This document shows positions 32,011-63,807 of a DNA stretch of 64,000 nt, piece by piece. Location: NCBI GenBank assembly GCA_028687915.1, contig JAQTZF010000001.1, positions 101,969 through 165,968 of the forward strand, in the 5' to 3' direction. Every line of letters starts with the position of its first letter. Positions within the stretch are counted from its first letter, which is position 1. The notes beneath the pieces are model-generated. The model ran no database searches. It was not told the DNA's origin and was given only the letters and a program-made list of their open reading frames with translations. The position numbers and the translations under genes were made by a program. The stretch comes from Candidatus Daviesbacteria bacterium. Its GTDB lineage: Bacteria; Patescibacteriota; Microgenomatia; Daviesbacterales; UBA10151.

Positions 32011-32011
32011 C

Positions 32012-40983: not shown

Positions 40984-42141
40984 ATGGAACCACACCCTAT
41001 CCCACAAAATGTTACATCTTTTGAATTCCACTTAGTTGGAGACATGACTCTTAAGCAGTTTGCCTATCTTGGTGCAGGCCTGGGAATGGCTTATTTATTA
41101 TATGCCACCATGTTCTTTTCTCTGCCAATTGTGGCTATCCCTTTAATTTTGGTATCTACTATATTAGGCGTGGCATTTGCTTTTGTTCCTATCTACGACC
41201 GGCCATTTGATCATTGGGTCTCAGCCTTTTTTAAAGCAGTTTATTCTCCAACTAAAGCTTCTTTTAAAATAAAATATGACCCTAAACTAAAAGTTGAACC
41301 AAACGATCCTTTCTTAAAGGATAGATTACAATTATACCTTTCAACTATGGGAATGACTGTTAATTTATGGGATAAAGCAGCAACTACTCAACCAAGAACA
41401 ACTCAAACACAATCAACCCCAACAGCCTTACAAGAAAAAGAAGTTGCTCTGGCAGAAAATTTAATTAGTAAAACTATGGATAATATTCAGACACAGACAC
41501 AACCATCAGCCTCAGAAAAATTACCAAGTCAGCAGGAATTAACTAATTTAGTAGAAATGGCAAAACAAGCACAATTATTACAGGGAAAAATTTCAGATAC
41601 AGAAAATTTAATCAAACAAATGACAAGCAGCACCAAGCAAGCAGAAGCATCACAAGTTCAATCTAGTTTAAAAGCCTTGATTCAGCAAACAGAAGAATTG
41701 TATAAAAAAACATCTACTATGAATCAAGCAACTCCTCATACAGCTCAACCTCAAACAGCAGCCATACCACAAGTACCAAGCATTCAGGCTGTTACTCAAC
41801 CAGTTGCCCCTCCAAAAGTAACTGTGGTACAACCACTGGCCCACAAAGAAACACAGGTGGTCTTAACCACCACCCCAAATATCATTAATGGAATGGTAAG
41901 TGACGAAGCTGGAAATTTCATAGAAAATGTCATTGTTATTATTCACGATAAAGAAGGTATTCCTGTTCGAGCATTAAAGACGAATAAGTTAGGTCAATTT
42001 GCCGGAGCAACTCCATTACCCCTGGGTGTCTACACCATTACTTTGGAGAAAGATAATTTTACCTTCCAAACCCTACAACTCACACTGGATAATTCAGTCT
42101 TAGGACCACTGCAAATCATCGCCAAAAAGGGAGGGCAATAG
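40984..42141 (+). CDS. PrgI-family (VirB3-like) T4SS membrane protein fused to a long Q/T-rich linker and a C-terminal carboxypeptidase-regulatory-like beta-sandwich.
   Basis: N-terminus FEFHLVGDMTLKQFAYLGAGLGMAYLLYATMFF...VAFAFVPIYDRPFDHW matches the PrgI family pattern. C-terminus IINGMVSDEAGNFIENVIVIIHDKEGIPVRALKTNKLGQFAGATPLPLGVYTITLEKDNF matches the CarboxypepD_reg pattern (GxVxDxxGxPIxxAxVxL...TDxxGxFxxxxLxxGxYTL). Start taken at MEPHPIP. Confidence 0.55.
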   Translation: MEPHPIPQNVTSFEFHLVGDMTLKQFAYLGAGLGMAYLLYATMFFSLPIVAIPLILVSTILGVAFAFVPIYDRPFDHWVSAFFKAVYSPTKASFKIKYDPKLKVEPNDPFLKDRLQLYLSTMGMTVNLWDKAATTQPRTTQTQSTPTALQEKEVALAENLISKTMDNIQTQTQPSASEKLPSQQELTNLVEMAKQAQLLQGKISDTENLIKQMTSSTKQAEASQVQSSLKALIQQTEELYKKTSTMNQATPHTAQPQTAAIPQVPSIQAVTQPVAPPKVTVVQPLAHKETQVVLTTTPNIINGMVSDEAGNFIENVIVIIHDKEGIPVRALKTNKLGQFAGATPLPLGVYTITLEKDNFTFQTLQLTLDNSVLGPLQIIAKKGGQ

Positions 42142-42143
42142 AA

Positions 42144-43043
42144 TTGACCACCAGCCAACAATTTATTCCTATTCAGGATGTTAATAAGGATTTAGTTTTT
42201 CAAAAAGATGGCAGTGTCGGCATTATTATCTCTGTTTCAGCAGTTAACTTTGCCCTGCTGTTTGAAACAGAACAAATATCTATCATTGATTCTTTTGCCG
42301 GGCTTTTAAATTCTTTATCTTTTCCTATCCAAATAGTTATCTATTCTAAAATCATGGATGTGTCATCTTATTTACACACTATTGATAATGCTTTAGCAAA
42401 ACAAACCAATCCTAACTTAAAAAAGATGACTTTAAGCTATCGCGGGTTTGTGGAAAAAAGCATTAAAGATAATAACGTGCTGGATAAAAAGTTTTATGTT
42501 TGTATTAAATTAACCTCTCTTGAGTTAGGTTTATTACCTTCTAACATGGAAGAAAAAACTAAAAAGGTGGCAACATTGCTTGAACCACGAAGAGATCATT
42601 TAATCAGGCAATTAGAGCGTTTAGGATTAAAAGCCAAACAACTATCTACAGAGGAGATTATTAAACTCTTTTATGAAATATATAATCCACCCATTACTGC
42701 TTCTGTTGCCCTGCCTGTACAAAGCAATATTAAATCTAGCCCCTTACTGGAAATTAATAAACCAGAAGTAATTCCTCAAACCCCTAAAGTAGAGGATAAT
42801 TTACCACCAAAACTGCGACCAATTAGAGCTAATTTGACTCAGCAAGTATCAACAACAGTAGTTCCACCTGCTCCTACTCCTGCACAAGCACCAATTACAC
42901 CACCAGTCATTCCAAAACCACCCACTCCGGTTGCTGCTCCTTTAACTAACCTATCTCCTATCACAGCAGCTAATTTAACATCTAATGCTTCTACTTTTAC
43001 ATCTCCTTTTGTGGTTGAAGAACTACCTGATGACGGACCCTAA
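42144..43043 (+). CDS. T4SS protein resembling the N-terminal domain of VirB4/CagE/TrbE, possibly the detached N-terminal part of a split VirB4, with a Pro/Thr-rich C-terminal tail.
   Basis: FIPIQDVNKDLVFQKDGSVGIIISVSAVNFALLFETEQISIIDSFAGLLNSLSFPIQIV follows the VirB4 N-terminal domain pattern (F-p--i-dg-i--kdGs-g-vl-v---n--l-s--E---l---f---Ln-L--piQi). The last 80 aa are low-complexity P/T/A. Confidence 0.4.
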   Translation: MTTSQQFIPIQDVNKDLVFQKDGSVGIIISVSAVNFALLFETEQISIIDSFAGLLNSLSFPIQIVIYSKIMDVSSYLHTIDNALAKQTNPNLKKMTLSYRGFVEKSIKDNNVLDKKFYVCIKLTSLELGLLPSNMEEKTKKVATLLEPRRDHLIRQLERLGLKAKQLSTEEIIKLFYEIYNPPITASVALPVQSNIKSSPLLEINKPEVIPQTPKVEDNLPPKLRPIRANLTQQVSTTVVPPAPTPAQAPITPPVIPKPPTPVAAPLTNLSPITAANLTSNASTFTSPFVVEELPDDGP

Positions 43044-44790
43044 ACAAAAACAATTAACTTTTGAAGATGCGGTTGCCCCCTATGAAGTAGAGGTTGATTT
43101 TTCGTTCCTAAAAATTAACCACCGCTATTTCCGTTCCTTTTTTGTATCTTCTTATCCGCGCTATGTTGAACCAAATTGGCTGGAGCCATTAATTTCATTT
43201 GAGCACTCAATGGTTTTATCAATGTTTATCTACCCTACCAGTTCAGCTGGCATTTTGGATGATTTAAAAAGAAAGATTGCTGAAATGGAAGCCACTATTC
43301 AAACTGATCAGGAAAGGGGGAGAATTGTTAATCCTACGGTTACAGTAGCTTTGGATGATGCCAAAGCATTACAGGAGCAACTTGCCAAAGGATCGGAAAG
43401 ATTTTTCCAGTTTAGTTTATATATTAATGTGCCCTCAGACTCTATTGAAGAATTAAATAATAAGTCACAGCTGGTTCAATCTACACTAGGCAGTATTTCT
43501 ATTGATTCTCATCCACTTTATTTACAAATGAAAGAAGGGTTTGAAAGCACACTGCCAATTGGACAAGATCCTTTATATCTTGCCCACAATATGGACACTA
43601 CCTCACTTGCCACCACATTTCCTTTTGTTTCCTCAGAGCTAACCTCACCAGATGGAGTTATTTATGGCATTAATGCCCATAACGATTCTTTAATTATTTT
43701 TGATAGGTTTAGCCAGGAAAACGCAAATTCTGTAGTTTTTGCAACAGCCGGTGCCGGTAAATCATATTTTGTAAAATTAGAATCTCTCCGTTCTTTAATG
43801 TTGGGCACAGAAGTAATTATTATTGACCCGGAAAAAGAATATGTAGATTTAGCCAAAGCTGTAGGGGGAGATTATATAAATTTTTCCACCACTTCACCTG
43901 TAAAGATTAATCCTTTTGACTTACCAGATATTTTAAATAGCGAAGAAGATGAATTAGGAAGAAAGATTTTATCTTTAACTGGATTTTTACGCTTGGTTTT
44001 AGGAGACCTCACTGCCAACGAAGTAGCAGTTTTAGATAGAGCCTTAAATGCCACTTATAAGTTAAAGGGGATTACAGCAAATGTTTTTAATAAAACAGAT
44101 CCTGCCAGTAAAATAAAAGTTGAGTCCCCGTTGATGGAAGATTTATATAAAGTGCTTATTGGCATGGAGGACAGCCTGGCGGGAAGCCTAGCTATAAGAT
44201 TGGAAAGGTTTATCAAAGGTTCTTTGGCTGGTATTTTTTCTGCTCAATCAAATATTAATATTCAAAACCCTTTTACTGTCTTTTCTGTTCGTGAATTACC
44301 AGACCAGTTAAGACCATTAGCTATGTATTTAATCCTTGATTATATTTGGACAAAAATCCGCAGAGAAATTAAAAAAAGGATTTTAGTGGTGGATGAGGCT
44401 TGGTATATGATGAAATACCCTGATTCTGCTTCTTTTTTAGTAGAAATGGTTAAAAGATCTAGGAAATATTACCTTGGAGTAACCACTATTAGCCAGGATG
44501 TAGAGGATTTCCTAGGACAAGACCGGGGCAAAGAAATCATTTCCAACTCAGCAATGCAGATATTATTAAAACAAGCACCTGTGTCTATTGAAAAAATAGG
44601 CGCTGTTTTTAATTTATCTCAGGGTGAAAAAAGACTGCTAACCACGGCTGGAGTAGGACAGGGGTTGTTTTTTGCTGGAAATGTACACATTGCCATGTCT
44701 ATTGTCGCCTCAGAAGAGGAGCATATCTTAATCACAACAAACCCCCGAGAAATATTGGAACGCCAGGAAAAAGAAAAAGGAGTTAGCTAA
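43030..44790 (+). CDS. virB4: VirB4-family T4SS ATPase (TraC/TrbE/PrgJ-like).
   Basis: N-terminal INHRYFRSFFVSSYPRYVEPNWLEPL, the classic VirB4 segment; Walker A ATAGAGKSYFVK; Walker B ILVVDEAW; C-terminal NPFDLP and TISQDVEDF motifs. Start taken at MTDPKQ (ATG 43030), overlapping the previous ORF by 14 nt. Confidence 0.8.
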   Translation: MTDPKQKQLTFEDAVAPYEVEVDFSFLKINHRYFRSFFVSSYPRYVEPNWLEPLISFEHSMVLSMFIYPTSSAGILDDLKRKIAEMEATIQTDQERGRIVNPTVTVALDDAKALQEQLAKGSERFFQFSLYINVPSDSIEELNNKSQLVQSTLGSISIDSHPLYLQMKEGFESTLPIGQDPLYLAHNMDTTSLATTFPFVSSELTSPDGVIYGINAHNDSLIIFDRFSQENANSVVFATAGAGKSYFVKLESLRSLMLGTEVIIIDPEKEYVDLAKAVGGDYINFSTTSPVKINPFDLPDILNSEEDELGRKILSLTGFLRLVLGDLTANEVAVLDRALNATYKLKGITANVFNKTDPASKIKVESPLMEDLYKVLIGMEDSLAGSLAIRLERFIKGSLAGIFSAQSNINIQNPFTVFSVRELPDQLRPLAMYLILDYIWTKIRREIKKRILVVDEAWYMMKYPDSASFLVEMVKRSRKYYLGVTTISQDVEDFLGQDRGKEIISNSAMQILLKQAPVSIEKIGAVFNLSQGEKRLLTTAGVGQGLFFAGNVHIAMSIVASEEEHILITTNPREILERQEKEKGVS

Positions 44791-47020: not shown

Positions 47021-47473
47021 ATGGCTAATTTAAGCTCAAAACAAAAAGTTATTGGTGTTATTGCTATCATAGGCACAATATTAATATTAATCTTCCAGTC
47101 TGGGTTTTACAGTAAACCTGCTGCAAAAAGAGAGGAAATAAATAACCCTGCTACTCAAAACCCAGAAGTAGTTTCTACATCTCCCAACCCCTTGGAAAAA
47201 GCAATTATTTGGGGAACCACACCAATCGAAATTACTTTTAATCTTTCTGTCCAGAATATTCCTGAACTAAAATATACATTTGAGCCAGAATCAGATATAA
47301 AAGCAGAGCTTCTAAACGACCGTAAAACTGTAAGATTTACACCAAATAAGCCTTTACCGCTGGGTGCTGACTATACCTTAACTATTCCAGCAGGCGCTAA
47401 GTTTGATGATGATAAAACTCTGGGTAAGGATTATAAAGTTCATTTTAGAACCATAGAGTATAGGGGTGTTTAA
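47021..47473 (+). CDS. Membrane-anchored Ig-like domain protein, a paralog of the previous gene.
   Basis: TM helix plus VVSTSPNPLEKAIIWGTTPIEITFNLSV...ADYTLTIPAG. Confidence 0.45.
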   Translation: MANLSSKQKVIGVIAIIGTILILIFQSGFYSKPAAKREEINNPATQNPEVVSTSPNPLEKAIIWGTTPIEITFNLSVQNIPELKYTFEPESDIKAELLNDRKTVRFTPNKPLPLGADYTLTIPAGAKFDDDKTLGKDYKVHFRTIEYRGV

Positions 47474-48570
47474 GATAAATTAACAGGCATTACGATATAT
47501 TCCAAACCCTCTTCTCCAACTGGCTTAAAAATAGCAGCAGAAAGAAGTCCTGATAATTCTATGATCACCTGGGATGAATTAAAGGCAGATAAACTATCTT
47601 GTAAATATTTAGTACTAAAGGAAATCTGAAGGTCTTCCCCTTCTACTTCTGCATCAATTTCTTTTTTCTGATTACCTAATTCTTTTGTTTCTGAGGTTAA
47701 CACTAGTTTTGATTTCAAATTTTGTAGTTTTACAGTATTAGCTTCACCTCTGGCAAACACAGAAGCCAGTTTAACCGCTTTTAGCAGCTCACTCCTACTT
47801 GTGATAATTCTTGCTTTGATCTCAGTTGGAACAATTTTTTCCCAGGCGGGAAACGACCCTTCGATTAATCGGGAAGAAATTTGTGTATTACCAAAAGAAA
47901 AAATGACCTGATTTTGATCCTCTGAAACAGCAATTTGAATACTATCTGCTTCGTCCTCGCTAATAAGCCTCACTACTTCTTCAAATGTGCGTCTGGGCAC
48001 CAATGCCTTAAAAGATGAGTCGCTTTCTGTCTCCACGCTTTTATGAGCCAAACGATAACCATCAGTTGCCACAAGCTGTAATTTTTTGTGGTTAATCTCA
48101 GTTAAAATACCTGTTAAGACTGGTCTACCATCATCAGCCGCGGCTGAAAAAACAATCTCAGGCAGAGCTTTAATTAATATTTTAGGATCTAATAAAGCAG
48201 CTTGTTTTCCTGATAAAGGAATATTTGGAAACTCTGTGGCGCTAATACCATTTAAAGTGGAGGAAAAAGTTGGGGTGGTTATTTCGATAGCTTCATCGCT
48301 GGCATTTATTTCAATCTTTTCACCAGAAAGGTTTGCAATTACATCAACCAACATCTTTGCGGGAATAGTTACTGCTCCTTCTTCTACCACATCTGCTTTC
48401 ACAGATTTCACAACACCTATTTCCAGGTTGGTAGCTGATATTTTTATTCTATCTGTTTGTGCTTCTATTAAAACATTACCTAAAACAGGTAATTGAGATC
48501 TAATACCTGCAGAACGAGAGACAGAAGAAAGTATTGGTATTAAATCCTGCTGTAAAATTGTAAATTTCAT
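47470..48570 (-). CDS. dnaN: DNA polymerase III beta sliding clamp.
   Basis: MKFTILQQDLIPILSSVSRSAGIRSQLPVLGNVLIEAQTDRIKISATNLEIGV..., 366 aa with a three-domain clamp pattern, downstream of dnaA. Confidence 0.85.
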   Translation of the reverse strand: MKFTILQQDLIPILSSVSRSAGIRSQLPVLGNVLIEAQTDRIKISATNLEIGVVKSVKADVVEEGAVTIPAKMLVDVIANLSGEKIEINASDEAIEITTPTFSSTLNGISATEFPNIPLSGKQAALLDPKILIKALPEIVFSAAADDGRPVLTGILTEINHKKLQLVATDGYRLAHKSVETESDSSFKALVPRRTFEEVVRLISEDEADSIQIAVSEDQNQVIFSFGNTQISSRLIEGSFPAWEKIVPTEIKARIITSRSELLKAVKLASVFARGEANTVKLQNLKSKLVLTSETKELGNQKKEIDAEVEGEDLQISFSTKYLQDSLSAFNSSQVIIELSGLLSAAIFKPVGEEGLEYIVMPVNLS

Positions 48571-48577
48571 ATACTAA

Positions 48578-49030
48578 TTACTCTTCCTGGGCAGAAATGT
48601 ACTTGTGGGCATCCTCATCAGAGATCTTAATCAAGCGAAAATGCACCCGCCCAGTAACTACTAGGTTTTTAATGTGTTTCTCTTCTTCTGTCAAGGTAGC
48701 AAAGTTACCATTTTTAACTTCAATAAAATCAATTCGTTCATTATTCTTTATTCCAACAAAATCTATTGGAGATCCGAGGGGAATAATTCGATCGTAATCA
48801 TAGCGCAACTGCGCATAAGCTAGTAACTCTGCCACTTTACCTTTTTGAGGATTAATTGATCCTTGTATGGTTTGTAATACTTTGGTTGGTAAATCTGCTG
48901 CTTGTTTATAAAGGGTGATTAAATCTGTTGGGATTTCTTGTGGTTTTTGTTTTGCATGAAGTCTTCCAAATAAATAAGTAATTACCAGTACGAGTATTCC
49001 TATTAGAATGTATATGTAATTTATATCCAT
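48578..49030 (-). CDS. Membrane-anchored PD-(D/E)xK nuclease-fold protein (Mrr-cat-like restriction-endonuclease-like).
   Basis: N-terminal TM helix, then ...PIDFVGIKNNERIDFIEVKNG..., which matches the D...(E/D)xK catalytic signature of Mrr_cat-type nucleases. Confidence 0.4.
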   Translation of the reverse strand: MDINYIYILIGILVLVITYLFGRLHAKQKPQEIPTDLITLYKQAADLPTKVLQTIQGSINPQKGKVAELLAYAQLRYDYDRIIPLGSPIDFVGIKNNERIDFIEVKNGNFATLTEEEKHIKNLVVTGRVHFRLIKISDEDAHKYISAQEE

Positions 49031-49089
49031 AATTTATACCAAATCTTTTGGTTCAAACTATTTAACGAGTCCTTTATGGTGGACGAGTT

Positions 49090-49368
49090 AAATTAGTTTA
49101 TCCACTTACAAAGCAGTCCTAGTTCTTTCTTTATTTATACAGCAGTAGTATTACTAGGGTCTGTTAAGATGTGTATTAACAGCCATAACTTAGGCGTAAA
49201 TAGCTTGGGGATAACAGAAAAACCCCTCTTCTGCCACAGTCTCAGTCTTTTTATCTACTGTTTACACTGAAGCTTTCGCCTACTCTTCGTGTGTAAAAAG
49301 TATATCATATATGTGGATAAAGTGGTGGATAACTTTAGTTAGTTTGGGGATAACTCTGTTGATAAATA
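49090..49368. promoter_or_regulatory. DnaA-box cluster (candidate oriC module) between dnaA and dnaN.
   Basis: TTATCCACT at 49097-49105; TGTGGATAA, a perfect reverse complement of TTATCCACA, at 49311-49319; GGTGGATAA at 49323-49331; TGGGGATAA at 49206-49214 and 49343-49351. Confidence 0.6.
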
Positions 49369-50700
49369 TTAAGCAGTCAGTGCTTGTTTTAGCTCAATTA
49401 AAACTCTTTGTATCTCTCTGTCTGTGCCAGAAGCTGTTCTGATTTTATCCACACCATGCAGGATAGTTGTGTGATCCCTTCCTCCAAGTAAATCCCCAAT
49501 CCTTTCATAAGGGATCTTACATTCCTCATATAAAAGATACATGGCTAATTGTCGTGGTAAAACCAACTCTTTTTTTCGTCTGGGACCAGTGATGTCTGCC
49601 ATTTTGGTGTTAAAGTAACGATTTATTTCAGAAAAAACCTTTTTATGGTCCAGCTTAATACTTGAGGGTTGAGGTTTGCCCAGATAATTTCTGATAAAGG
49701 CGGGGTTTAATTCTTGGTTGCTAAGCTTAGCAATCTGAATTATCTGCATTAGTTTTCCTTCTAACTCTCTGGCATTTGTTTCCACAAGCTCAGCAATTAA
49801 GATAATGCATTCTTCCGGAACAATATCTCCTTTTTCCCGACACCTGGCTTTAATAATTGCTATTCTGGTATCAAAATCTGGAAGTTGAATATCCACCATT
49901 AAACCTCCCTGAAAACGGGAGGCCAGCCTTCCTTCTAATTTTTGGATTTCATTAGGTGGTCTGTCTGAAGTTAAAATTATTTGAGCATTTTTGGCTTGAA
50001 GCTCATTAAATGTATGGAAGAATTCTTCCTGGGTAGAATCTCTGCCAGAAATAAACTGCACGTCATCAATTAAAAGTAATCCACAATTACGGTATTTAGC
50101 CCTAAAATCACCTGTTCTTTTAGTTTGAATACTTTGGATAAAGTCATTCATGAACTTTTCTGAGGAACAATAGATAATTTTTAGGTGTGGGTTCTTTTGA
50201 ATTAAGGCATTTCCCACAGCATGCATTAAATGAGTCTTCCCTACTCCTGTTCCACCATAGATAAATAAAGGGTTGTATGAAGTTCCAGGATTATTAATTA
50301 CTGCTTGTGCTGCTGCATAAGCTAGATTATTAGATAAGCCAACCATAAAGTTTTCAATTGAATATTTAGGATTTAGGCCGGTTTGTGATACATCGGGCGC
50401 TCTGACTTCAAAATCTAGCTCCAGGTCTGGTTCTGAGCTTATCCCTCCTTTTGTGTCTAATGAGGAATCAACCCTTAATTCAATGTGTAGGCTTTTACCA
50501 AAGGACTCCTCCACTGCTTTGGCCAGGTCGTCAATATATTTAGTGGAAAGCTGTTGCTTAATAAATCCTGAGGGGACATTGATAACAATATTTTCTTCAT
50601 CCACGCTCTCGAGCGCTGTTTTAGAAAACCATGTTTTATAGTTTGCCAAAGTGACTTGGTTTTTTAAAATCTTTAGAGTTTTAGACCATTGTTTTTCCAT
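49369..50700 (-). CDS. dnaA: Chromosomal replication initiator DnaA.
   Basis: AAA+ Walker A GGTGVGKTHLMHAVGN, Walker B LLLIDDVQF, sensor motifs, and a C-terminal DNA-binding domain (...LPRQLAMYLLYEECKIPYERIGDLLGGRDHTTILHG). Start taken at MEKQWSK (ATG 50698-50700). Confidence 0.9.
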   Translation of the reverse strand: MEKQWSKTLKILKNQVTLANYKTWFSKTALESVDEENIVINVPSGFIKQQLSTKYIDDLAKAVEESFGKSLHIELRVDSSLDTKGGISSEPDLELDFEVRAPDVSQTGLNPKYSIENFMVGLSNNLAYAAAQAVINNPGTSYNPLFIYGGTGVGKTHLMHAVGNALIQKNPHLKIIYCSSEKFMNDFIQSIQTKRTGDFRAKYRNCGLLLIDDVQFISGRDSTQEEFFHTFNELQAKNAQIILTSDRPPNEIQKLEGRLASRFQGGLMVDIQLPDFDTRIAIIKARCREKGDIVPEECIILIAELVETNARELEGKLMQIIQIAKLSNQELNPAFIRNYLGKPQPSSIKLDHKKVFSEINRYFNTKMADITGPRRKKELVLPRQLAMYLLYEECKIPYERIGDLLGGRDHTTILHGVDKIRTASGTDREIQRVLIELKQALTA

Positions 50701-50859
50701 AAGGTGTAAAGGGTAGGTTGAGGCAAGACCCAAACTTGATGGGGCTATCATAATGAAAAAGTTATCCACAGAAAAGATACCTAAACAGTGACGCACTATA
50801 TCAACTTTGTTTTCATTTAAAAATTGAAATTTATGAAATTAAATGTCATTATTTATTAA
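50701..50859. promoter_or_regulatory. dnaA upstream region with a perfect DnaA box and an AT-rich putative DNA-unwinding element.
   Basis: TTATCCACA at 50762-50770, followed by about 60 nt of more than 85% A+T (catttaaaaattgaaatttatgaaattaaatgtcattatttattaaatgaatatttt). Confidence 0.45.
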
Positions 50860-51800: not shown

Positions 51801-51938
51801 ATGCCAAAGCGCACATATCAACCTAAAAAAGTTAAAAGAGCCAGAAAACATGGATTCCTTTCCCGGATGGCAGATAATGATGGTCAAAAAGTTTTAAAAA
51901 GAAGAAGAGCTAAAGGTAGAGTAAAGCTTTCTGTCTAA
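51801..51938 (+). CDS. rpmH: 50S ribosomal protein L34; under 60 aa, so not in the ORF track.
   Basis: Translation [45 protein letters not shown], the canonical L34 sequence, immediately upstream of rnpA. Confidence 0.85.
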
Positions 51939-52279
51939 TGCTATCTCGCGACAAAAGACTAAATTTAAAAATCTCATTCAGTTTTGTTATTAAAGGACAA
52001 AAGACAGAGAATTCTTTCTATAAGATTTTTTTTAGACAAGGAGATGTTGTTCAACCAAAAGTTGGCATTGCCTTAAAAAAAGAATATTTCAAATTAGCAG
52101 TTGATAGAAACAGAGCCAGAAGGTTAACATCAAAGGCTATGGAAAGCTTGTACCCTCTCTTAAAAGAAAAGACTAATTTAATTTTAATGCCTAAGGCAGA
52201 GATTTTGAAGCAAAGTTCAGAGGAATTGACAGAGTTTTTGAAAAAAGAACTGAAGAGAATTGACCTAATTTCTAATTGA
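51938..52279 (+). CDS. rnpA: Ribonuclease P protein component.
   Basis: A 113-aa basic protein directly after rpmH (TAATG overlap). It carries the RNR-like motif RNRARR and follows the conserved rpmH-rnpA-yidD-yidC synteny. Confidence 0.75.
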   Translation: MLSRDKRLNLKISFSFVIKGQKTENSFYKIFFRQGDVVQPKVGIALKKEYFKLAVDRNRARRLTSKAMESLYPLLKEKTNLILMPKAEILKQSSEELTEFLKKELKRIDLISN

Positions 52280-52346
52280 CCTAATTTCTAAACTTAGTAA
52301 TTGGAACTTATTTAGGTTAATTAGAGTACTTAGAAAATTAGAAATT

Positions 52347-52547
52347 ATGAAGACCATTATTTTATTACTGATTGATTTTTATCGTAAGTTTCTGTCTTTT
52401 GATACTGGCTTGTTTTCTTTTTTGGCTCCAGGTGGTGCTTGCAGACAAACACCAACATGCTCTTTGTACACTAGGCAAGCGATTATAAAGTATGGTTTAA
52501 TAAAAGGGCTTCTAAAGGGAGGGAAAAGAATAATAACATGCAGATAA
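52347..52547 (+). CDS. yidD: Membrane protein insertion efficiency factor YidD.
   Basis: The CRQTPTCSLYTRQAIIKYG motif (C-x-P-x-C-S-x-Y) typical of YidD, in a 66-aa protein. Confidence 0.8.
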   Translation: MKTIILLLIDFYRKFLSFDTGLFSFLAPGGACRQTPTCSLYTRQAIIKYGLIKGLLKGGKRIITCR

Positions 52548-53386
52548 TTGGTGACATTTTTAATACAGTGCTTTTTGCTCCCATCCTAAATTTATTAGTA
52601 GCTATTCTTAAAGGTGCTGAATTTATACATTTACCAGGAGCCTTAGGTTTATCCATTATCCTTTTGACTGTCCTAATTCGTTTATTGGTATGGCCTTTTA
52701 TGCAGACTCAGCTTAAATCAGCCAGAAAAATGGCAGAATTAAAACCACACCTTGATTTTTTAAAAACTAAGCATAAAGGAGATAAACAAGCGTTGGCTTC
52801 AGCTCAGATGGCTCTTTATAAAGAGCATGGAATTAACCCGGCTGGTGGTTGTATTCCCGCTCTTATTCAGATCCCAATTATTATTGCTCTTTATCAAACG
52901 ATTCTGGCTTTTTTTAATACTTCTGGTTTAGAAAATATTAACAAGGCATTATATGTTAAGGACTGGCATTTTTTAACACCTCCAAATTTGGATTTTTTTG
53001 GCTTGAATTTAGCAACTAAACCTTCAGATTTTGGTCAATATGGAATTCTTCTCCTTTTGATACCTGTTGTTACAGGGGCTTTGCAGCTTATTCAGTCTAA
53101 AATGATGGCACCTGAGAAGCCAATTAAGGAATACCCTTCTGATTCTCCAAAAGAAAAGAAAGAAAAAGAAAGTACAGAAGATTCTATGGCTATGATGCAA
53201 TCACAAATGATGTTCATGATGCCTTTAATGGTAGGTTATTTTGCCTTCTCTTTTCCGATTGGGCTGGCTTTATACTGGAATACCTTTACTGTTCTGGGGA
53301 TTATTCAACAATATAAAATCTCTGGTTGGGGTGGTTTAAAAGATTGGATTAAGTATATTAAAAGTAAAACTAATTTAAACTCATGA
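52538..53386 (+). CDS. yidC: Membrane protein insertase YidC (short Gram-positive type).
   Basis: LIRLLVWPFMQTQLKSARKMAELKP, QMALYKEHGINPAGGCIPALIQIPI, and the C-terminal GLALYW, all conserved YidC/Oxa1 segments. Confidence 0.8.
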   Translation: MQIIGDIFNTVLFAPILNLLVAILKGAEFIHLPGALGLSIILLTVLIRLLVWPFMQTQLKSARKMAELKPHLDFLKTKHKGDKQALASAQMALYKEHGINPAGGCIPALIQIPIIIALYQTILAFFNTSGLENINKALYVKDWHFLTPPNLDFFGLNLATKPSDFGQYGILLLLIPVVTGALQLIQSKMMAPEKPIKEYPSDSPKEKKEKESTEDSMAMMQSQMMFMMPLMVGYFAFSFPIGLALYWNTFTVLGIIQQYKISGWGGLKDWIKYIKSKTNLNS

Positions 53387-59063: not shown

Positions 59064-59822
59064 ATGGCAAGAATTTCATTAAAAGCAACTGAAAGAGAAA
59101 TCTTTGGTAAAAAAGTTAATAAACTTCGAAAGTCTGGGATTATTCCTGGACACGTTTTTGGTAAAAGCCTGGAAACAGAACATGTTTCAGTTAAGGCTGC
59201 TGATTTTATTAAGGTTTATAAAGAAGCAGGGGAAACAGGGTTAATTGATTTAAAAATAAGCAAGCTTGCTGCTAACGCAGTTGATGATGATAAAACCAGG
59301 CCTGTATTAATTCGCCAGGTACAATTAGATCCAGTCAGAAGCGAAGTCCTTAATATTGATTTTTACCAGGTCAACTTAAAAGAAAAAACTACTGTTAATG
59401 TTCCAATAGAATTAATTGGGGAAGAACCAGAAATAGTACATAGTGGAGAAGCTGTTGTAATTCAACCAATGATGGAAGTTGAAGTAGAGGCTTTGCCAGA
59501 TGATTTACCAGAAAATATTGAAGTTGATATTAGCTCACTTAAAGCAATTGATGATGCTATCACTGTTGCTGACTTACCAGTGCCTACTGGTGTCACTATC
59601 TTAGCTGAACCAGAAGCTGTAGTAGTTAAATTAGATAATGCAGTAACAGCAGAGATGCAAGAGCTACTGGAAGAACAAGCAGAAGAACAGGCTGCAGCAA
59701 CTGAAGCTGCTGCTGAAGGCGCTGAAGGTGAAGAAAAGCCTGAAGGTGAAGAAGGTGCAGAAACCCCTGAAGGTGAAGAAAAACCTGCTGAAGGTCAGGA
59801 AAAAGAAGAATCTGCTGAGTAA
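59064..59822 (+). CDS. rplY: 50S ribosomal protein L25 / general stress protein Ctc, with an acidic C-terminal extension.
   Basis: MARISLKATEREIFGKKVNKLRKSGIIPGHVFGK, the canonical L25 N-terminus. Two-domain Ctc form with an E/A-rich tail. Confidence 0.8.
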   Translation: MARISLKATEREIFGKKVNKLRKSGIIPGHVFGKSLETEHVSVKAADFIKVYKEAGETGLIDLKISKLAANAVDDDKTRPVLIRQVQLDPVRSEVLNIDFYQVNLKEKTTVNVPIELIGEEPEIVHSGEAVVIQPMMEVEVEALPDDLPENIEVDISSLKAIDDAITVADLPVPTGVTILAEPEAVVVKLDNAVTAEMQELLEEQAEEQAAATEAAAEGAEGEEKPEGEEGAETPEGEEKPAEGQEKEESAE

Positions 59823-59867: not shown

Positions 59868-61991
59868 TTAGGCACAAACTTTTGGCCAAGAGCTTTCCAT
59901 AATTGATTTTTTATCTTTATTTATCTTTTGCCAGAGCTCTTCTGTAGTAAAGGGCATAAATGGGTGTAAGAGTTTTAATGTTTCTGCTAACACATGTTCT
60001 AAAACTGGTTGGGCTTCAACTCTTCTGTCTTTGCTTTTTTCTATATAAACATCTGCAAACTTGTGCCAAATAAATTCATATAAAATTTCAGTTGCCAAAT
60101 GCAACTGAAATGATTCCAGATTTTTAGTGACATCCTTAATGGTTTTATTTAGCTCTTCCAAAATCTTTTTATCATCTGGATGTAATTTGTCATTCTGATG
60201 GTCCGCTGGACCAGAAGAATCTAGATCCTTCGTTTCACTCAGGATGACAGAAGAAGGTTTTAATTCATAAATAAATCTATAAATATTTTTTATTTTTGTC
60301 CCAAAGTTACGGAAGTTTTTACATCTTTCATCCATTAGTTGTCGGGATGTTTTACCATCACGACCTGGTGCAGAATAAGAATATAACGCCATCCTGACAC
60401 TATCTGTTCCCCAGCTTTCCCTTAAGTCATTGGGATTAATACCATTACCCAAGGATTTGGAAAATTTCTTTCCCTGTAAGTCTCTTAGCATCCCGTGGAA
60501 GAACATATTTTTAAAAGGAATTTGTTCCGCAAGGTAGAGTGAAATCATGATCATGCGGGCAATCCAAAGGTATTTTATTTCCGGAGCGGTAATTTCAAAG
60601 TCCCATGGGAAGTATTTTTTCATCTCTTCTGTGTTATTAGGCCAGCCCAATGTTGATAAAGGCCAAAGACCTGAGGAGAACCAGGTATCAAATATCTTTT
60701 CTTCCTGCACCCACCCTTCACCTGGTGGGTCTTGGGAAACTTTTATATCATCTCCGTGGTACCAAATTGGGATGCGGTGGCCCCACCAAAGATCGCGTGA
60801 AATACACCAATCATGTAAGTCTTTAATCCAATCAGTTAAAATCTTTTTGTAATTTTTTGGTAAGAAATTTACCTCTCCAATTCTTTTTAAAGCCTTGTCT
60901 GCCAAGGGCTTCATTTTAATAAACCACTCTTCAGAGATTAATGGTTCTACTGTTGTTTTACATCTTTCGCAAACTGGAACAGAATGGATAAGGTCTTCTG
61001 TCTTAATTAAAGCTCCTGATTCCTGTAATTTTGCAGCTGCTTTTTCTTCTGCTTCATCAATCTTTAACCCAGCTAAATCTTGGGCTAACTCAGTCATTCG
61101 GCCAGTCTTATCAACAACATGTAAAATTGGTAAGTTGTGATCTTTGCCAATTTCATAATCTTTTGGATCATGACCTGGGGTGATTTTTAAAGCGCCGGTG
61201 CCAAAATCTTTATCCACTCTTTTATCTTCAAAGATCGGAATTTTATTACTGTTTAAAGGATTGATGGCAAAAGCTCCAACAAATTTCTTAAACTCCGGGT
61301 GGTTGGGATACATAGCAATCCCAGTATCAGCATAGATGGTTTCTGGTCTGGTAGTGGCAATAGTAATAAAGTCATCAGAATTTTCTATTTTGTATTTAAC
61401 AAAATATAATTTTTCTTTTTTTTCTTCATATTCCATTTCTACATCTTCGATGGCAGTGCCACACTTTGGACACCACTGAACAATGTAGGCCCCTTTATAA
61501 ACCAAGCCATCATCATAATATTTTTTAAACTCTGCAAAAACAGCGTCAGACCTTTTTTCATCCATGGTAAAAACTTCTCTTGACCAATCAGCAGAAATTC
61601 CAAAAACAGTCCAGTCTTTATGAAAAGACTGATAGACTTCATCTTTAAACTCCAGTGCTCTTTTCATCCATTCTTCTCTTCCTAACTTATTTTTGGTAAG
61701 TCCCTCTTTACTGAGTAGTTTATTTAAAGCTCCTTCAAATTGGATACCAGCATGATCCACCCCTGGCATAAGTAAAACATCAAAGCCCTGCATCCTCTTA
61801 AAACGGGCGATTGCATCTAGGATAGAGTGTTGCATGGCATGACCCAAGTGTAATTCTCCGGTTAAGTTTGGAGGCGGCATAAGGAGGGAATAAGGTTTTT
61901 TAGAAGACAATGGGTCTGCCTTAAAAAGGCCTGATTTTTCCCACGAGTTATAGAGTTCTTTTTCCAGTTGCTGCTGATTATTCTTATCCAT
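59868..61991 (-). CDS. valS: Valine--tRNA ligase (compact form).
   Basis: PPPNLTGELHLGHAMQHSILDAIARFKRMQGFDVLLMPGVDHAGIQ, the ValRS-type HIGH region; KFSKSLGN, the KMSKS motif; and an editing-domain segment. Confidence 0.8.
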   Translation of the reverse strand: MDKNNQQQLEKELYNSWEKSGLFKADPLSSKKPYSLLMPPPNLTGELHLGHAMQHSILDAIARFKRMQGFDVLLMPGVDHAGIQFEGALNKLLSKEGLTKNKLGREEWMKRALEFKDEVYQSFHKDWTVFGISADWSREVFTMDEKRSDAVFAEFKKYYDDGLVYKGAYIVQWCPKCGTAIEDVEMEYEEKKEKLYFVKYKIENSDDFITIATTRPETIYADTGIAMYPNHPEFKKFVGAFAINPLNSNKIPIFEDKRVDKDFGTGALKITPGHDPKDYEIGKDHNLPILHVVDKTGRMTELAQDLAGLKIDEAEEKAAAKLQESGALIKTEDLIHSVPVCERCKTTVEPLISEEWFIKMKPLADKALKRIGEVNFLPKNYKKILTDWIKDLHDWCISRDLWWGHRIPIWYHGDDIKVSQDPPGEGWVQEEKIFDTWFSSGLWPLSTLGWPNNTEEMKKYFPWDFEITAPEIKYLWIARMIMISLYLAEQIPFKNMFFHGMLRDLQGKKFSKSLGNGINPNDLRESWGTDSVRMALYSYSAPGRDGKTSRQLMDERCKNFRNFGTKIKNIYRFIYELKPSSVILSETKDLDSSGPADHQNDKLHPDDKKILEELNKTIKDVTKNLESFQLHLATEILYEFIWHKFADVYIEKSKDRRVEAQPVLEHVLAETLKLLHPFMPFTTEELWQKINKDKKSIMESSWPKVCA

Positions 61992-62000: not shown

Positions 62001-62609
62001 TTATATTACTTTTTGGTCCTTTTTTGGTAATGCACCACAATTGCCAATTTTATTTAGTGAATAAGTTGCTTTGCAGGGTGGTTCTGCGCCATTCTTTAAT
62101 TGGATGGTGACAGTCTGTTTAACATGGTTGCTAAAAACAGCAATAATATTTTCCGTAAGAAACTCATGTCTGTTGCCACAATTTTCAATAAAAAATCCGG
62201 CACTACCAACCTCTCTTAATTTTTGATTTGTAATAATACTTATACCTTCTTTTGGTGTAAAAGGGGGTTGTCCTAAAATTTGGGGAAAGGGCTGGTCGTA
62301 GTGAATTCTTCTGATGGTAGACAATTCTTCCCAACCCCATGGGTTATAGGTACCAAGATTAACTGTTGTGTCAGTTTGTCGAGGTTTTGAGGCAGTATAT
62401 TCTATACTCATTGGTGTAAGGTCACTTTGATATTCTTCTTGGGTTTGATCTATTTTTTTAAAAGTAATAATTTGTTTGCGACCAGGCTCTTTGCTTGTGT
62501 AAAAGCGATTATAAGTACCAGGAGGAACTGGGTTAATGGGGTCACCTATCCAGACTTTAGTATTGGGATGTAATTGATGTTCTTTTTCGCCCCTCATAAG
62601 ATAAGCCAA
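62001..62609 (-). CDS. Hypothetical protein, 202 aa.
   Basis: ORF downstream of tsaD. No motif recognised. Confidence 0.35.
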   Translation of the reverse strand: MAYLMRGEKEHQLHPNTKVWIGDPINPVPPGTYNRFYTSKEPGRKQIITFKKIDQTQEEYQSDLTPMSIEYTASKPRQTDTTVNLGTYNPWGWEELSTIRRIHYDQPFPQILGQPPFTPKEGISIITNQKLREVGSAGFFIENCGNRHEFLTENIIAVFSNHVKQTVTIQLKNGAEPPCKATYSLNKIGNCGALPKKDQKVI

Positions 62610-62628: not shown

Positions 62629-63807
62629 TTATTGATGTGAAGAGTTATTGTCAAGAGAGATGTTAGGGTTTGCCTGAAGGTGTAATGGATTAATAGGGGA
62701 AGGGTTAAAGAAAGCAGCGGTGGCAATACTGGCAGCATTGTCAGTACAAAGTGAGGGAGGGGGGATAAAAACCTTGGCATGTGGAATAATTTCGGACAGG
62801 CTTTGGGTGAGCTTAGAGGAGAGTGTTTTATTAGCTGCTACTCCTCCAGCAACAATAATTTGATCAATATTGTACAATTGGACTGCTGTGACAGTCTTTT
62901 CAACAAGAATATCTGTAATAGCATCTTCAATTGAAGCAGCTAAGTTAGCCAGCATATCAGAAGATCGGAGTATCAGAGTATCGGCGGAGCCACTTTTGCT
63001 GACTTGCTGGTCCGCTGATCTTAGCTGATTTATCTGATTATTGACTGCAGTTTTTAAACCAGAGAAAGAAAAATCCAGATCCTTAGAATCCAGCATTGGT
63101 CTGGGTAAATTATATGCTTTGGGATTACCTTCTTCTGCTAGTTTGGATAAGTTGGGTCCTCCTGGATAAGGCAGCCCAAGTAGTCTGGCACATTTATCAA
63201 AACACTCTCCTGCAGCATCATCACGGGTTCCTCCTAAATATTTATATTTTCCGTGGTCTGTAAAGAGGATTAAATCAGTGTGTCCTCCTGAAACTAATAA
63301 GCCAAGACAAGGAAATGTCGGAACATCAGGGTGTCGGAGTATCAGAGTATCAGCTGTTGCTGATTTGCTGACCCTCTGACTTGCTGACTCTCTGATATCT
63401 ATCCAATTAGCATAAAAATGTCCCCGTAGATGATTTACAGGAATTAAGGGTTTATTCCAAATTAAACTCAGTGTCTTAGCTGTTTCAACTCCGACTAAGA
63501 GTGATCCTATTAGTCCTGGTCCTTCTGTAACAGCTATAGCGTCGATTGGCGGGGTATTGTTGATGGTGTATGGTTTGTGACTTATAAATGCCTTGGACAG
63601 TGCTTCTTCGACCACTGGAATGATGCTTAAAAGCTGCTCTCTTGCTGCTTGTTCAGGAATTACACCACCATATTTAGCTTGTAATTCAGCTGAGGAAGCC
63701 ACAATATTGGATAAAATAGTTACTCTATCTCCATCTTTTTGCATGATAGCACAAGCTGTTTCATCACAACTTGTCTCTATTCCCAGAATAATTTGTTTAT
63801 TTTTCAT
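62629..63807 (-). CDS. tsaD: tRNA N6-adenosine threonylcarbamoyltransferase TsaD (Kae1/Gcp family), carrying two roughly 20-aa repeat-derived insertions.
   Basis: ILGIETSCDETACAI N-terminus, HLRGHFYAN, LLVSGGHT, and C-terminal GG(V)AAN motifs. Two paralogous inserted segments, SASQRVSKSATADTLILRHPDV and SADQQVSKSGSADTLILRSSDM, are encoded by near-identical DNA repeats. Confidence 0.85.
   Translation of the reverse strand: MKNKQIILGIETSCDETACAIMQKDGDRVTILSNIVASSAELQAKYGGVIPEQAAREQLLSIIPVVEEALSKAFISHKPYTINNTPPIDAIAVTEGPGLIGSLLVGVETAKTLSLIWNKPLIPVNHLRGHFYANWIDIRESASQRVSKSATADTLILRHPDVPTFPCLGLLVSGGHTDLILFTDHGKYKYLGGTRDDAAGECFDKCARLLGLPYPGGPNLSKLAEEGNPKAYNLPRPMLDSKDLDFSFSGLKTAVNNQINQLRSADQQVSKSGSADTLILRSSDMLANLAASIEDAITDILVEKTVTAVQLYNIDQIIVAGGVAANKTLSSKLTQSLSEIIPHAKVFIPPPSLCTDNAASIATAAFFNPSPINPLHLQANPNISLDNNSSHQ
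62950..63010. repeat. Intragenic repeat copy A inside tsaD.
   Basis: ...GATCGGAGTATCAGAGTATCGGCGGAGCC...GCTGACTTGCTGG... shares the 18-nt core TCGGAGTATCAGAGTATC and GCTGACTTGCTG with copy B. Confidence 0.6.
63320..63390. repeat. Intragenic repeat copy B inside tsaD.
   Basis: ...GTGTCGGAGTATCAGAGTATCAGCTGTTGCTGATTTGCTGACCCTCTGACTTGCTGACTC... Confidence 0.6.

What the first reader, a model, noticed from the sequence alone, without database searches (positions are those of the whole stretch)
62940..63400. Two in-frame copies of a roughly 60-bp repetitive element inserted into the essential tsaD gene
Both copies share the core TCGGAGTATCAGAGTATC (itself an AGAGTATC tandem) and the GCTGACTTGCTG motif. 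Each adds about 20 residues to TsaD (…ASQRVSKSATADTLILRHPDV… and …ADQQVSKSGSADTLILRSSDM…) at loop positions flanking conserved motifs (after HLRGHFYAN and before the C-terminal domain), without breaking the frame. This resembles Rickettsia palindromic elements, which are selfish repeats that insert in-frame into coding genes. The two copies are in direct orientation about 370 bp apart, so recombination between them would delete essential sequence.
Basis: seen in the sequence. Interest (0 to 1): 0.6.

Follow-up and report, generated by a model that had tools for sequence, protein, structure and literature searches.

The report
In-frame hairpin repeats inside tsaD
Two copies of a short hairpin-forming DNA repeat sit in frame in two surface loops of the tRNA-modification gene tsaD of a candidate-phyla-radiation bacterium; they look like a new relative of the selfish "protein-coding palindromes" of Rickettsia, but no further copy of this exact element was found.

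Summary
tsaD (62629-63807, minus strand) has two about 78-nt segments (63322-63399 and 62950-63027). They share an exact 18-mer (0 of 100 shuffles) and about 60-70% identity overall, lie 369 nt (123 codons) apart, and are both in frame. Each is built from 8-nt TCAG units followed by CTGA units, which makes an imperfect hairpin.

Each adds about 20 residues at a loop that is short or empty in many orthologues (the first loop is 4-8 residues in 30 of 117) and is poorly ordered in an AlphaFold model.

In related CPR TsaDs the same loops hold many unrelated palindromic inserts that turn over faster than the protein. A sister element with the same architecture shares an identical 24-nt core in tsaD, dnaX and a polyprenyl synthase gene, and occurs in diverged form in an intergenic spacer. 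That is the behaviour of Rickettsia palindromic elements.

No further copy of the window's own variant was found in 72 kb of this genome or in 5.8 billion proteins. Intragenic duplication or gene conversion therefore cannot be excluded.

Verdict: probably a new, shorter, unit-built variant of in-frame palindromic mobile repeats. Confidence about 0.6, interest moderate.

The parts
62629..63807 (-). tsaD coding sequence (392 aa), the host gene of both inserts
   Evidence: ORF list. Pfam TsaD, E = 2.7e-82. PDB TsaD homologues, E about 1e-70. Identical to NCBI MDD2822612.1.
63322..63399 (-). Copy B, in loop site 2 just after HLRGHFYANWI. It encodes residues 137-162, DIRESASQRVSKSATADTLILRHPDV. In the sense direction it has five TCAG units at 8-nt spacing, a CAGCTG centre, then CTGA/CCGA units. 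It forms a long imperfect hairpin.
   Evidence: Unit chains found at 63318-63353 and 63360-63395, with none in shuffles. RNA fold of 63316-63402: sense -29.3 kcal/mol (z = -4.0), antisense -38.2 kcal/mol (z = -5.1). This stretch is unaligned to E. coli/Salmonella TsaD. AlphaFold gives coil, with pLDDT below 50 for residues 141-159. G+C is 0.47.
62950..63027 (-). Copy A, in loop site 3 after SGLKTAVNN. It encodes residues 261-286, QLRSADQQVSKSGSADTLILRSSDML. It has the same unit architecture but is more degenerate, and its hairpin is weaker.
   Evidence: Repeat family D1. Unit chains at 62957-62984 and 63015-63037. RNA fold z = -1.7 (sense) and -2.7 (antisense); DNA fold z = -0.8. About 16 aa longer than Salmonella TsaD here. 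pLDDT block means are 77 and 59 for residues 261-280, a break between two helices. G+C is 0.51. Its left junction is shared almost base for base with the site-3 insert of L004/P0008.
63334..63351 (+). Exact 18-mer core of copy B (TCGGAGTATCAGAGTATC; in the sense direction GATACTCTGATACTCCGA, peptide ADTLILR)
62965..62982 (+). Exact 18-mer core of copy A
63544..63591 (-). Loop site 1 of TsaD (AFISHKPYTINNTPPI). This is a third variable segment, read by eye as short CCATACA-like units and not as a hairpin. In relatives the same site holds other repeat families.
   Evidence: Alignment A1, insert catalogue, coordinates and G+C of 0.42. The unit structure was read from the sequence and was not tested statistically.
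60188..60249 (-). Related phenomenon from a different family: an in-frame, degenerate palindromic insert in the neighbouring valS gene (…SSVILSETKDLDSSGPADHQNDK…). Its terminal stems are GUCAUCCUGAG / CAUCAGAAUGAC.
   Evidence: Six-frame motif scan. ValRS alignment shows a variable, longer segment here. The fold is weak, z = -1.5 to -1.8. ValRS of relatives carries other repeat-like peptides at this and other sites.

Best explanation
**What it is.** The two segments are copies of a small, non-autonomous, hairpin-forming repeat of about 65-80 nt. Its left arm is made of tandem 8-nt units with a TCAG core, and its right arm of complementary CTGA units.

**How it got there and why it persists.** Elements of this design spread within genomes of this CPR (Patescibacteria, Microgenomates-like) lineage. 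In an essential gene they survive only under three conditions:
- they land in a surface loop that tolerates extra residues;
- they lie in the one orientation and frame that has no stop codon;
- their length is a multiple of three.

TsaD has three such loops. In this genome two of them carry the same element family, so the protein gains about 20 disordered or weakly structured residues at each.

**Later change (inferred).** After insertion the elements probably change quickly, by gain and loss of units and by replacement with other families. The 18-nt identical tract may be a short gene-conversion patch between the two copies.

**Shown**
- the repeat itself, its in-frame position, the hairpin and the unit structure;
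- the lineage-specific presence or absence of inserts, and their loop location;
- dispersal of a sister family into unrelated genes and an intergenic spacer.

**Inferred**
- that this particular variant was, or is, mobile rather than copied only within the gene;
- that the inserts are translated and neutral.

The enzyme or mechanism of spread is unknown.
For: 1. The repeat is real and non-random.
2. It has a palindromic unit architecture and significant folding for copy B. Its G+C is above the gene background.
3. Inserts are present or absent among orthologues. The site-2 loop is bimodal: 4-8 aa in 30 of 117 relatives and at least 20 aa in 64 of 117. Site 3 ranges from 12 to 61 aa.
4. The nearest relatives (63-70% identity) carry unrelated hairpin families at the same sites. 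Turnover is therefore faster than protein divergence.
5. TCAG/CTGA hairpins occur at site 2 or site 3 of tsaD in several separate TsaD clades: L002, L004, L005, L096, L097 and L098.
6. The heptamer sister family is dispersed.
   - The 24-mer AAGTCTGAAAGCTGACAGCGAAGC is identical in tsaD (L002, L096), dnaX (L099) and polyprenyl synthase (L100), from four assemblies.
   - All coding copies lie in one reading frame (peptide SSVVSRQSSDK.SLKADSEA.LKTD).
   - A more diverged copy (56-64% identity in alignment) lies in an intergenic spacer at L096:3443-3510.
7. That same family sits at the same tsaD site in P0002 and P0028. These fall in different TsaD clades, while P0002's neighbours have other inserts or none.
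8. The same element in both loops of one gene recurs with different families. Four of 56 TsaDs exceed the 99th percentile of between-gene similarity, and L020 has two copies 84% identical over 99 nt.
9. Other repeat families seen in TsaD loops occur in intergenic DNA of related contigs and in valS.
10. The loops are unaligned to solved TsaDs and have low confidence in the model.
Against: - No third copy of this variant was found in the 64-kb window plus 8.8 kb beyond it. That is about 6.6% of the genome.
- No other protein among 5.8 billion matches the insert peptides at E <= 10. P0001 and the other source proteins were recovered as positive controls.
- A full HMMER scan of 1.84 billion representatives gave only two chance hits in unrelated repeat proteins.
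- The two copies are only about 60-70% identical, so at least one is old.
- Sequence similarity between this octamer variant and the dispersed heptamer family is weak, 35-53% in alignment. The link between them rests on architecture and position, not on demonstrable homology.
- No transposase or other candidate mobilising gene is present in the window.
- No target-site duplication or terminal inverted repeat could be defined.
- Copy A's hairpin is not significant as DNA.
Confidence: 0.6

Rival explanations
1. Intragenic duplication or gene conversion. Both loops already held variable low-complexity sequence. One was copied onto the other, by template switching or short-patch conversion over about 370 bp, without any genome-wide mobile element of this variant.
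For: - The only two copies known anywhere are in this gene.
- Identity is concentrated in one exact 18-nt tract within otherwise diverged copies, as expected of a conversion patch.
- Within-gene similarity between site 2 and site 3 recurs in other lineages: L020 at 84% over 99 nt, L098 with the same AAGATCAG unit in both loops, and 4 of 56 TsaDs overall. No extra copy was seen in those loci's flanks.
- The site-3 insert shares its left junction with the one in P0008, so it may predate the homogenisation.
Against: - A sister family of the same design is demonstrably dispersed among unrelated genes and an intergenic site.
- Inserts at these sites are replaced by unrelated families between close relatives. 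This needs an outside source of sequence.
- Only 6.6% of the genome could be inspected.
Confidence: 0.22
2. Local de novo expansion. The loops tolerate any sequence, and replication slippage of 7-8-nt units, plus quasi-palindrome template switching, generated similar low-complexity hairpins independently at each site. Nothing was inserted.
For: - The units are homogenised within arrays: TCAGTCG four times in L096, AAGATCAG four times in L098.
- L002 and L096 differ by internal insertions and deletions within the same element.
- One-armed arrays of the same octamer exist in unrelated phyla.
Against: - An identical 18-mer at two sites, and an identical 24-mer in four unrelated genes or genomes, cannot arise independently.
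- Slippage does not explain the complementary second arm.
- Slippage does not explain the sharply bimodal empty/filled length distribution.
Confidence: 0.1
3. Selected function. The added peptides form lineage-specific TsaD surfaces (for example for partner or tRNA contacts), or the hairpins act in the mRNA or an antisense RNA to regulate tsaD.
For: - The peptide is more conserved than the DNA in places: K-S-A/G is encoded by TCA GCA in one copy and AGT GGC in the other (read).
- The antisense strand folds best, -38.2 kcal/mol with z = -5.1.
- Site 3 is modelled as a helical extension.
Against: - Many orthologues lack the inserts or carry unrelated ones. No conserved function can therefore be attached to them.
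- Site 2 is predicted to be disordered.
- There is no Rfam match.
- The G.U asymmetry rests on about two positions.
Confidence: 0.06

Closest known systems
Rickettsia palindromic elements (RPE; Ogata et al. 2000, 2002, as summarised in PMC10969869)
   Same: - Short palindromic repeats found in frame inside unrelated, often essential, genes.
- One open frame gives a conserved peptide.
- Absent from orthologues.
- Located where the protein fold tolerates them.
- Also found in non-coding DNA.

All of these are shown here for the sister heptamer family. For the window's element, all except dispersal are shown.
   Different: - Different phylum: CPR/Patescibacteria rather than Alphaproteobacteria.
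- About 65-80 nt rather than the roughly 100-150 nt of RPEs.
- Built from tandem 7-8-nt TCAG/CTGA units.
- No sequence relationship is expected, and none was tested.
- Many unrelated families compete for the same three loops of one gene.
- Copy number in this genome is unknown, and only the two copies were seen.
REP/BIME elements and other prokaryotic MITEs (ERIC, Correia, Nezha and others)
   Same: Small non-autonomous hairpin repeats that are dispersed and occasionally fused in frame to ORFs.
   Different: - No GTAG/CGTC tag, terminal inverted repeats or target-site duplication could be recognised.
- No RAYT/Y1 or other transposase is present in the window.
- REPs are typically extragenic.
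Cyanobacterial short tandemly repeated repetitive (STRR) heptamers and small dispersed repeats (recalled from memory, not checked here)
   Same: Arrays of 7-nt units that occur in many places in a genome and read as low-complexity peptides when they fall inside ORFs.
   Different: - Those are mostly one-armed tandem arrays in spacers.
- Here two complementary arrays form a hairpin, and they sit in frame in housekeeping genes.
Hairpin elements in organelle coding regions (for example the GC-rich 'byp' elements of Magnusiomyces mitochondria and double-hairpin elements of Allomyces; recalled from memory, not checked here)
   Same: G+C-richer hairpin elements invading protein-coding genes of an A+T-rich, compact genome.
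   Different: - Byps interrupt the frame and are bypassed by the ribosome.
- The elements here keep the frame open, so translation through them is the simplest reading.

Membership tests
Rickettsia palindromic elements (RPE-like protein-coding palindromes) | Inserted in frame in a protein-coding gene, with no stop codon, adding a peptide | tested here: met
   Both copies are in frame in tsaD. The other five frames contain stops.
Rickettsia palindromic elements (RPE-like protein-coding palindromes) | Palindromic, with predicted stem-loop | tested here: inconclusive
   Copy B: RNA z = -4.0 (sense) and -5.1 (antisense), DNA z = -2.25. Copy A: RNA z = -1.7 and -2.7, DNA z = -0.8. So the feature is met for one copy and weak for the other.
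Rickettsia palindromic elements (RPE-like protein-coding palindromes) | Absent from orthologues (lineage-specific insertion) | tested here: met
   Site 2 is 4-8 aa in 30 of 117 relatives. The closest relatives have unrelated inserts or none. E. coli/Salmonella TsaD lack both inserts.
Rickettsia palindromic elements (RPE-like protein-coding palindromes) | Located on the protein surface, compatible with the fold | tested here: met
   In the AlphaFold2 model (mean pLDDT 85), residues 141-159 have pLDDT below 50 and are coil. Residues 261-280 have block means of 77 and 59, at a helix-break-helix. Contacts with TsaB, TsaE or tRNA were not examined.
Rickettsia palindromic elements (RPE-like protein-coding palindromes) | Dispersed: many copies in unrelated genes and spacers of the same genome | tested here: inconclusive
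   - For this variant there are 0 further copies in 72 kb, and no other protein matches.
- For the sister heptamer family, copies occur in tsaD, dnaX, polyprenyl synthase and one spacer.
Rickettsia palindromic elements (RPE-like protein-coding palindromes) | Sequence membership in RPE-1 to RPE-10, with length of about 100-150 bp (the review read gives about 150 bp) | tested here: not met
   Length is about 65-80 nt. The host is a CPR bacterium. No alignment to RPE consensus sequences was run. This is therefore an analogue, not a member.
MITE (miniature inverted-repeat transposable element) | Terminal inverted repeats flanked by a target-site duplication | tested here: inconclusive
   The termini ATCAG…CTGAT are inverted, but they are just the repeat unit. 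Comparison with empty sites and with the dnaX, polyprenyl synthase and tsaD junctions showed no consistent duplication.
REP/RAYT system | Conserved 5' tetranucleotide tag (GTAG/CGTC) and a cognate Y1 transposase gene in the genome | tested here: inconclusive
   No GTAG/CGTC tag was seen in the copies read; this was by eye, not a formal scan. No Y1_Tnp or other transposase domain is present among the 62 of the window's 64 predicted ORFs that were scanned. The rest of the genome is unseen.
TsaD (host gene) | Match to the Kae1/TsaD family and to solved TsaD structures | tested here: met
   Pfam PF00814, 277 bits. PDB TsaD hits, E about 1e-70. H126, H130 and the flanking GHFYANW are invariant in alignment A1. 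That these are the metal-binding histidines is my own knowledge, not tested here.

The most novel reading that the evidence does not exclude
CPR/Patescibacteria genomes host a whole guild of tiny palindromic repeat families. These include ones built from TCAG/CTGA 7-8-nt units. They repeatedly colonise, replace one another in, and sometimes doubly occupy the same few surface loops of essential housekeeping proteins (TsaD, ValRS, DnaX, polyprenyl synthase), always in the one open frame. 'Protein-coding palindromes' would then not be unique to Rickettsia. They would be a general way in which reduced, gene-dense genomes accommodate selfish DNA and generate rapid loop diversity.
Probability: 0.5. 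Interest if true: 0.7.

Novelty: new variant of a known kind. Interest (0 to 1): 0.55.

Why it matters
In-frame palindromic repeats have been treated as a Rickettsia peculiarity. I searched 7.7 million PMC papers plus bioRxiv and found no paper that mentions both Rickettsia palindromic elements and Patescibacteria; a looser search that also named candidate phyla radiation, Microgenomates, Parcubacteria and Saccharibacteria listed no paper containing the RPE term among its top ten.

If the CPR elements are mobile, several things follow:
- They are an independent case of selfish DNA living inside essential genes of a minimal genome.
- They could explain part of the odd length variation of CPR proteins.
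- They would be natural markers of insertion-tolerant loops in TsaD, ValRS and DnaX.
- They raise the question of what mobilises a 70-nt hairpin made of 7-8-nt units.
- They are a practical caveat for annotation and phylogenomics of CPR genomes. Such inserts inflate divergence and can mislead alignments.

Tried and rejected
- **Exact 18-mer scan of 185,579 species genomes.** It gave only 9 hits in unrelated taxa. Two of the hits (L007, L015) are one-armed octamer arrays, not this element.
- **Peptide search with the two insert peptides alone.** One candidate, no score.
- **Exhaustive HMMER search of a 32-aa window fragment against 1.84 billion representatives.** Two hits, both chance matches to TPR-like or other repeat proteins.
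- **Scans of viral contigs for both family cores.** Nothing found.
- **Rfam on the locus.** Nothing credible.
- **blastn of 40 TsaD insert sequences against about 1 Mb of related loci.** Almost no hits outside tsaD. This first suggested a tsaD-specific phenomenon. That idea was dropped once the looser unit-chain detector found the L096 spacer copy and the concatenated peptide search found the dnaX and polyprenyl synthase copies.
- **Window-wide repeat and inverted-repeat searches.** No other dispersed repeat family in the window.
- **Pfam scan of 62 of the window's 64 predicted ORFs.** No transposase.
- **Ideas considered and rejected.**
  - Intein, intron or bypass element: too short, and the frame is open throughout.
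  - Diversity-generating retroelement target: wrong fold and position.
  - Assembly artefact: two assemblies agree.
Full report
**1. The observation**

The ORF at 62629-63807 on the minus strand encodes a 392-aa TsaD. Pfam PF00814 matches at E = 2.7e-82, in two stretches split by the first insert. The identical protein is NCBI MDD2822612.1, from a 1,096,538-bp contig of a CPR/Patescibacteria MAG. A separate Logan assembly of SRR22315507 gives the same gene.

The 18-mer TCGGAGTATCAGAGTATC occurs exactly twice in the window, at 62965 and 63334. The expectation from shuffles is 0.04, and 0 of 100 shuffles had two matches. Around it the repeat finder reports 65 nt at 69-72% identity. GCTGACTTGCTG is present in both copies, exact in one and with one mismatch in the other.

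The encoded peptides are DIRESASQRVSKSATADTLILRHPDV (residues 137-162) and QLRSADQQVSKSGSADTLILRSSDML (residues 261-286). They share 16 invariant positions. The cores are 369 nt apart, which is 123 codons, so the two copies are in the same frame. Only that frame is open through both copies.

The elements are closer to 65-80 nt than to 60.

**2. Anatomy**

Read in the sense direction, copy B is ATCAGAGAG TCAGCAAG TCAGAGGG TCAGCAAA TCAGCAA-CAGCTG-ATACTCTG ATACTCCG ACACCCTGAT. That is five TCAG units at 8-nt spacing, a palindromic centre, then CTGA/CCGA units at 8-nt spacing. Copy A has the same plan but is more degenerate.

- Chains of four or more such units occur nowhere else in the window, nor in the 8.8 kb beyond it. 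They never occur in shuffles.
- Copy B folds as one long imperfect hairpin. As sense RNA it gives -29.3 kcal/mol (z = -4.0), as antisense -38.2 kcal/mol (z = -5.1), and as DNA z = -2.25.
- Copy A folds weakly, with z between -0.8 and -2.7.
- The inserts are richer in G+C (0.47 and 0.51) than the rest of tsaD (0.39) or the window (0.36).

**3. Are they insertions, and where do they sit in the protein?**

Against solved E. coli and Salmonella TsaD structures, residues 137-160 have no counterpart. The second site is about 16 residues longer than in those proteins.

An AlphaFold2 model built on 24 relatives has mean pLDDT 85 and pTM 0.85. It puts site 2 in a coil, with residues 141-159 below pLDDT 50. 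It puts site 3 at a break between two long helices, with block means of 77 and 59.

Among 120 TsaD relatives at 57-70% identity, there are three hypervariable sites:
- after EALxxA (site 1);
- after HFYANWI (site 2);
- after SGLKTAVxN (site 3).

The site-2 loop length is bimodal. It is 4-8 residues in 30 of 117 relatives and 20 or more in 64 of 117. Site 3 ranges from 12 to 61 residues.

**4. What fills these loops in relatives**

It shows that the loops hold many different hairpin-type sequences:
- TCAG/CTGA-unit hairpins (L002, L004, L005, L096, L097, L098);
- a G+C-rich element reading GAP..R.E.R..GA.SRQDPE (L016, L017, L020, L048);
- near-perfect hairpins such as CACCCCCGAGGTG…CACCTCGGGGGTG (L051);
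- TCGAG-based and GTATAGAG-based hairpins, and others.

At the peptide level the same families recur at different sites in different proteins. Even the nearest relatives of the window's TsaD carry unrelated inserts or none. Turnover is therefore much faster than protein divergence.

The same element in both loops of one gene is a recurrent pattern:
- L020 has two copies 84% identical over 99 nt.
- L098 uses the same AAGATCAG unit in both loops.
- Among 56 TsaDs with both inserts, 4 exceed the 99th percentile of between-gene similarity. The window's protein is the most extreme, scoring 69 against a between-gene maximum of 62.

**5. Is the element dispersed?**

For the window's own variant the answer is 'not seen':
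- No further copy in 72 kb of the genome.
- No other protein among 5.8 billion at E <= 10, in a search that did recover P0001 and the other source proteins as controls.
- Only two chance hits among 1.84 billion representatives.
- The genome-collection scan did not contain the source genome.

For the architecture the answer is 'yes'. A looser unit-chain detector found 8 TCAG/CTGA hairpins inside tsaD genes and one outside, in about 0.97 Mb of CPR loci. The outside copy is at L096:3443-3510, in the spacer between two divergent genes. It lies 6.5 kb from a tsaD that carries the same heptamer (TCAGTCG) element at site 2.

The concatenated-peptide search then found the same element in frame in two other kinds of protein:
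- two polyprenyl synthases, P0123 and P0124 (…AEK[SSVVSRQSSDNASLKADSEASLKTDSS]IMQ…);
- a DnaX, P0125 (…NCEK[QSSVVSRQSLDKTSLKADSEASLKTDN]YPCNSC…).

At the DNA level the 24-mer AAGTCTGAAAGCTGACAGCGAAGC is identical in tsaD (L002, L096), dnaX (L099) and polyprenyl synthase (L100), from four assemblies. All coding copies use the same reading frame. The spacer copy is more diverged, at 56-64% identity in alignment, and did not match that 24-mer within four mismatches.

In a neighbour-joining tree with the inserts masked, P0002 and P0028 carry this element at the same tsaD site but lie in different clades. P0002's neighbours have other inserts or an empty site. This argues for repeated acquisition rather than inheritance.

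**6. Not only tsaD**

The neighbouring valS gene in the window carries a degenerate palindromic insert (…SSVILSETKDLDSSGPADHQNDK…, 60188-60249) in a segment that varies among orthologues. ValRS of relatives shows peptides typical of other repeat families (VIPAKAGI in L097, SRVKPGM in L048, and a 34-aa insert in L004).

Families seen in TsaD loops (PEFISGS/LKQVQHD and AKQS..IA) also occur in non-coding DNA of related contigs.

**7. Interpretation**

The best-supported reading is that the two segments are copies of a small hairpin repeat. It belongs to a guild of palindromic elements that spread in these genomes and are retained in essential genes only when in frame in tolerant loops. Functionally this is an analogue of Rickettsia palindromic elements, whose features are summarised in PMC10969869.

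It is not a member of that family. The phylum is different, the length is about half, and the element is built from 7-8-nt units.

The main rival is intragenic copying or conversion between two already variable loops. It is kept alive by three facts: there is no third copy, the copies are only about 60-70% identical overall, and the identity is concentrated in one 18-nt tract. Pure slippage cannot explain identical 18- and 24-mers at separate loci. A conserved function is hard to reconcile with the many orthologues that lack the inserts.

The mobilising mechanism is unknown. No transposase is present among the 62 of the window's 64 predicted ORFs that were scanned against Pfam. No target-site duplication could be defined.

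**8. Novelty and score**

Two searches of the paper library (7.7 million PMC papers plus bioRxiv) were made. None holds both 'Rickettsia palindromic element' and 'Patescibacteria'. A looser search for any two of five terms, including candidate phyla radiation and three CPR lineage names, returned 584 papers; none of the ten listed contained the RPE term.

I rate this a new variant of a known kind, with interest 0.55. It is a clear, checkable case with a wider pattern behind it. However, dispersal of this specific element, translation of the inserts and the mechanism of spread are all unproven.

Noticed in passing
window 60188-60249 (-), inside valS (59868-61991): In-frame degenerate palindromic insert (…SSVILSETKDLDSSGPADHQNDK…), with terminal stems GUCAUCCUGAG/CAUCAGAAUGAC. 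It lies in a segment that differs in length among ValRS orthologues. It belongs to a different repeat family from the tsaD element.
   Followed up: partly
L096:3443-3510 (spacer), L099:200-290 (dnaX), L100:320-400 (polyprenyl synthase), L002:3276-3360 and L096:10375-10470 (tsaD): A heptamer-unit (TCAGTCG) hairpin element of about 80 nt. The four coding copies share an identical 24-nt core and lie in frame in three unrelated housekeeping genes. A more diverged copy (56-64% identity in alignment) lies in one spacer. The copies come from four assemblies.
   Followed up: yes
P0001-P0120 (TsaD relatives), sites 1-3; L020:10001-11275: Three TsaD loops hold many recurrent repeat-like peptide families: PVILSEAKNL..RDPSL..QDDK; AKQS..EIAS..PRNDN; HPEFISGS..MLKQVQHD; VIPAKAGIQ..RLRGDD; HTSEVKKSSYTSEVK; EHLRGE..HLGGE; RGAP.TARSE..GAASRQDPE. 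L020 carries the last family in both loops, at 84% nt identity.
   Followed up: partly
L007:1-70 (Stahlbacteria MAG, contig end) and L015:1720-1790 (Eubacteriales MAG): One-armed tandem arrays of the same octamer GAGTATCR in unrelated phyla. They were picked up by the exact 18-mer scan. Their relationship to the CPR elements is unknown.
   Followed up: no
window 31225-33480 and 40939-44790: Five tandem small genes with the T4SS_pilin domain, plus PrgI-like and TraG/VirB4-like ATPase genes. Together they form a type IV secretion-like cluster.
   Followed up: no
window 47470-50796: dnaN and dnaA lie side by side on the minus strand, so the window probably spans the chromosomal replication origin. 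rnpA and yidC lie just downstream, at 51938-53386.
   Followed up: no
window 59702-59817 (3' end of the L25/TL5 gene, 59064-59822): Tandem imperfect repeats of about 9-27 nt. They encode an acidic low-complexity tail, read by eye as E/G/A/P/K-rich and not translated with a tool.
   Followed up: no
window 62001-62609 (-): A 202-aa ORF between tsaD and valS with no Pfam match. Syntenic loci have one or two small unannotated ORFs at this position (L002, L005, L096, L097, L098); in L004 tsaD is followed directly by valS.
   Followed up: no
window 21106-21215, 24462-24573, 24626-24735: Three related stretches of about 110 nt. By eye they resemble tRNA genes (…GGTTCRAATCC…CGCCA). They were not run through the tRNA finder.
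   Followed up: no
window 63316-63402: The hairpin is more stable as the + strand, antisense to tsaD (-38.2 against -29.3 kcal/mol). TCGG:CTGA gives G.U pairs on that strand and C.A mismatches on the sense strand. This may be chance, as about two positions are involved.
   Followed up: partly
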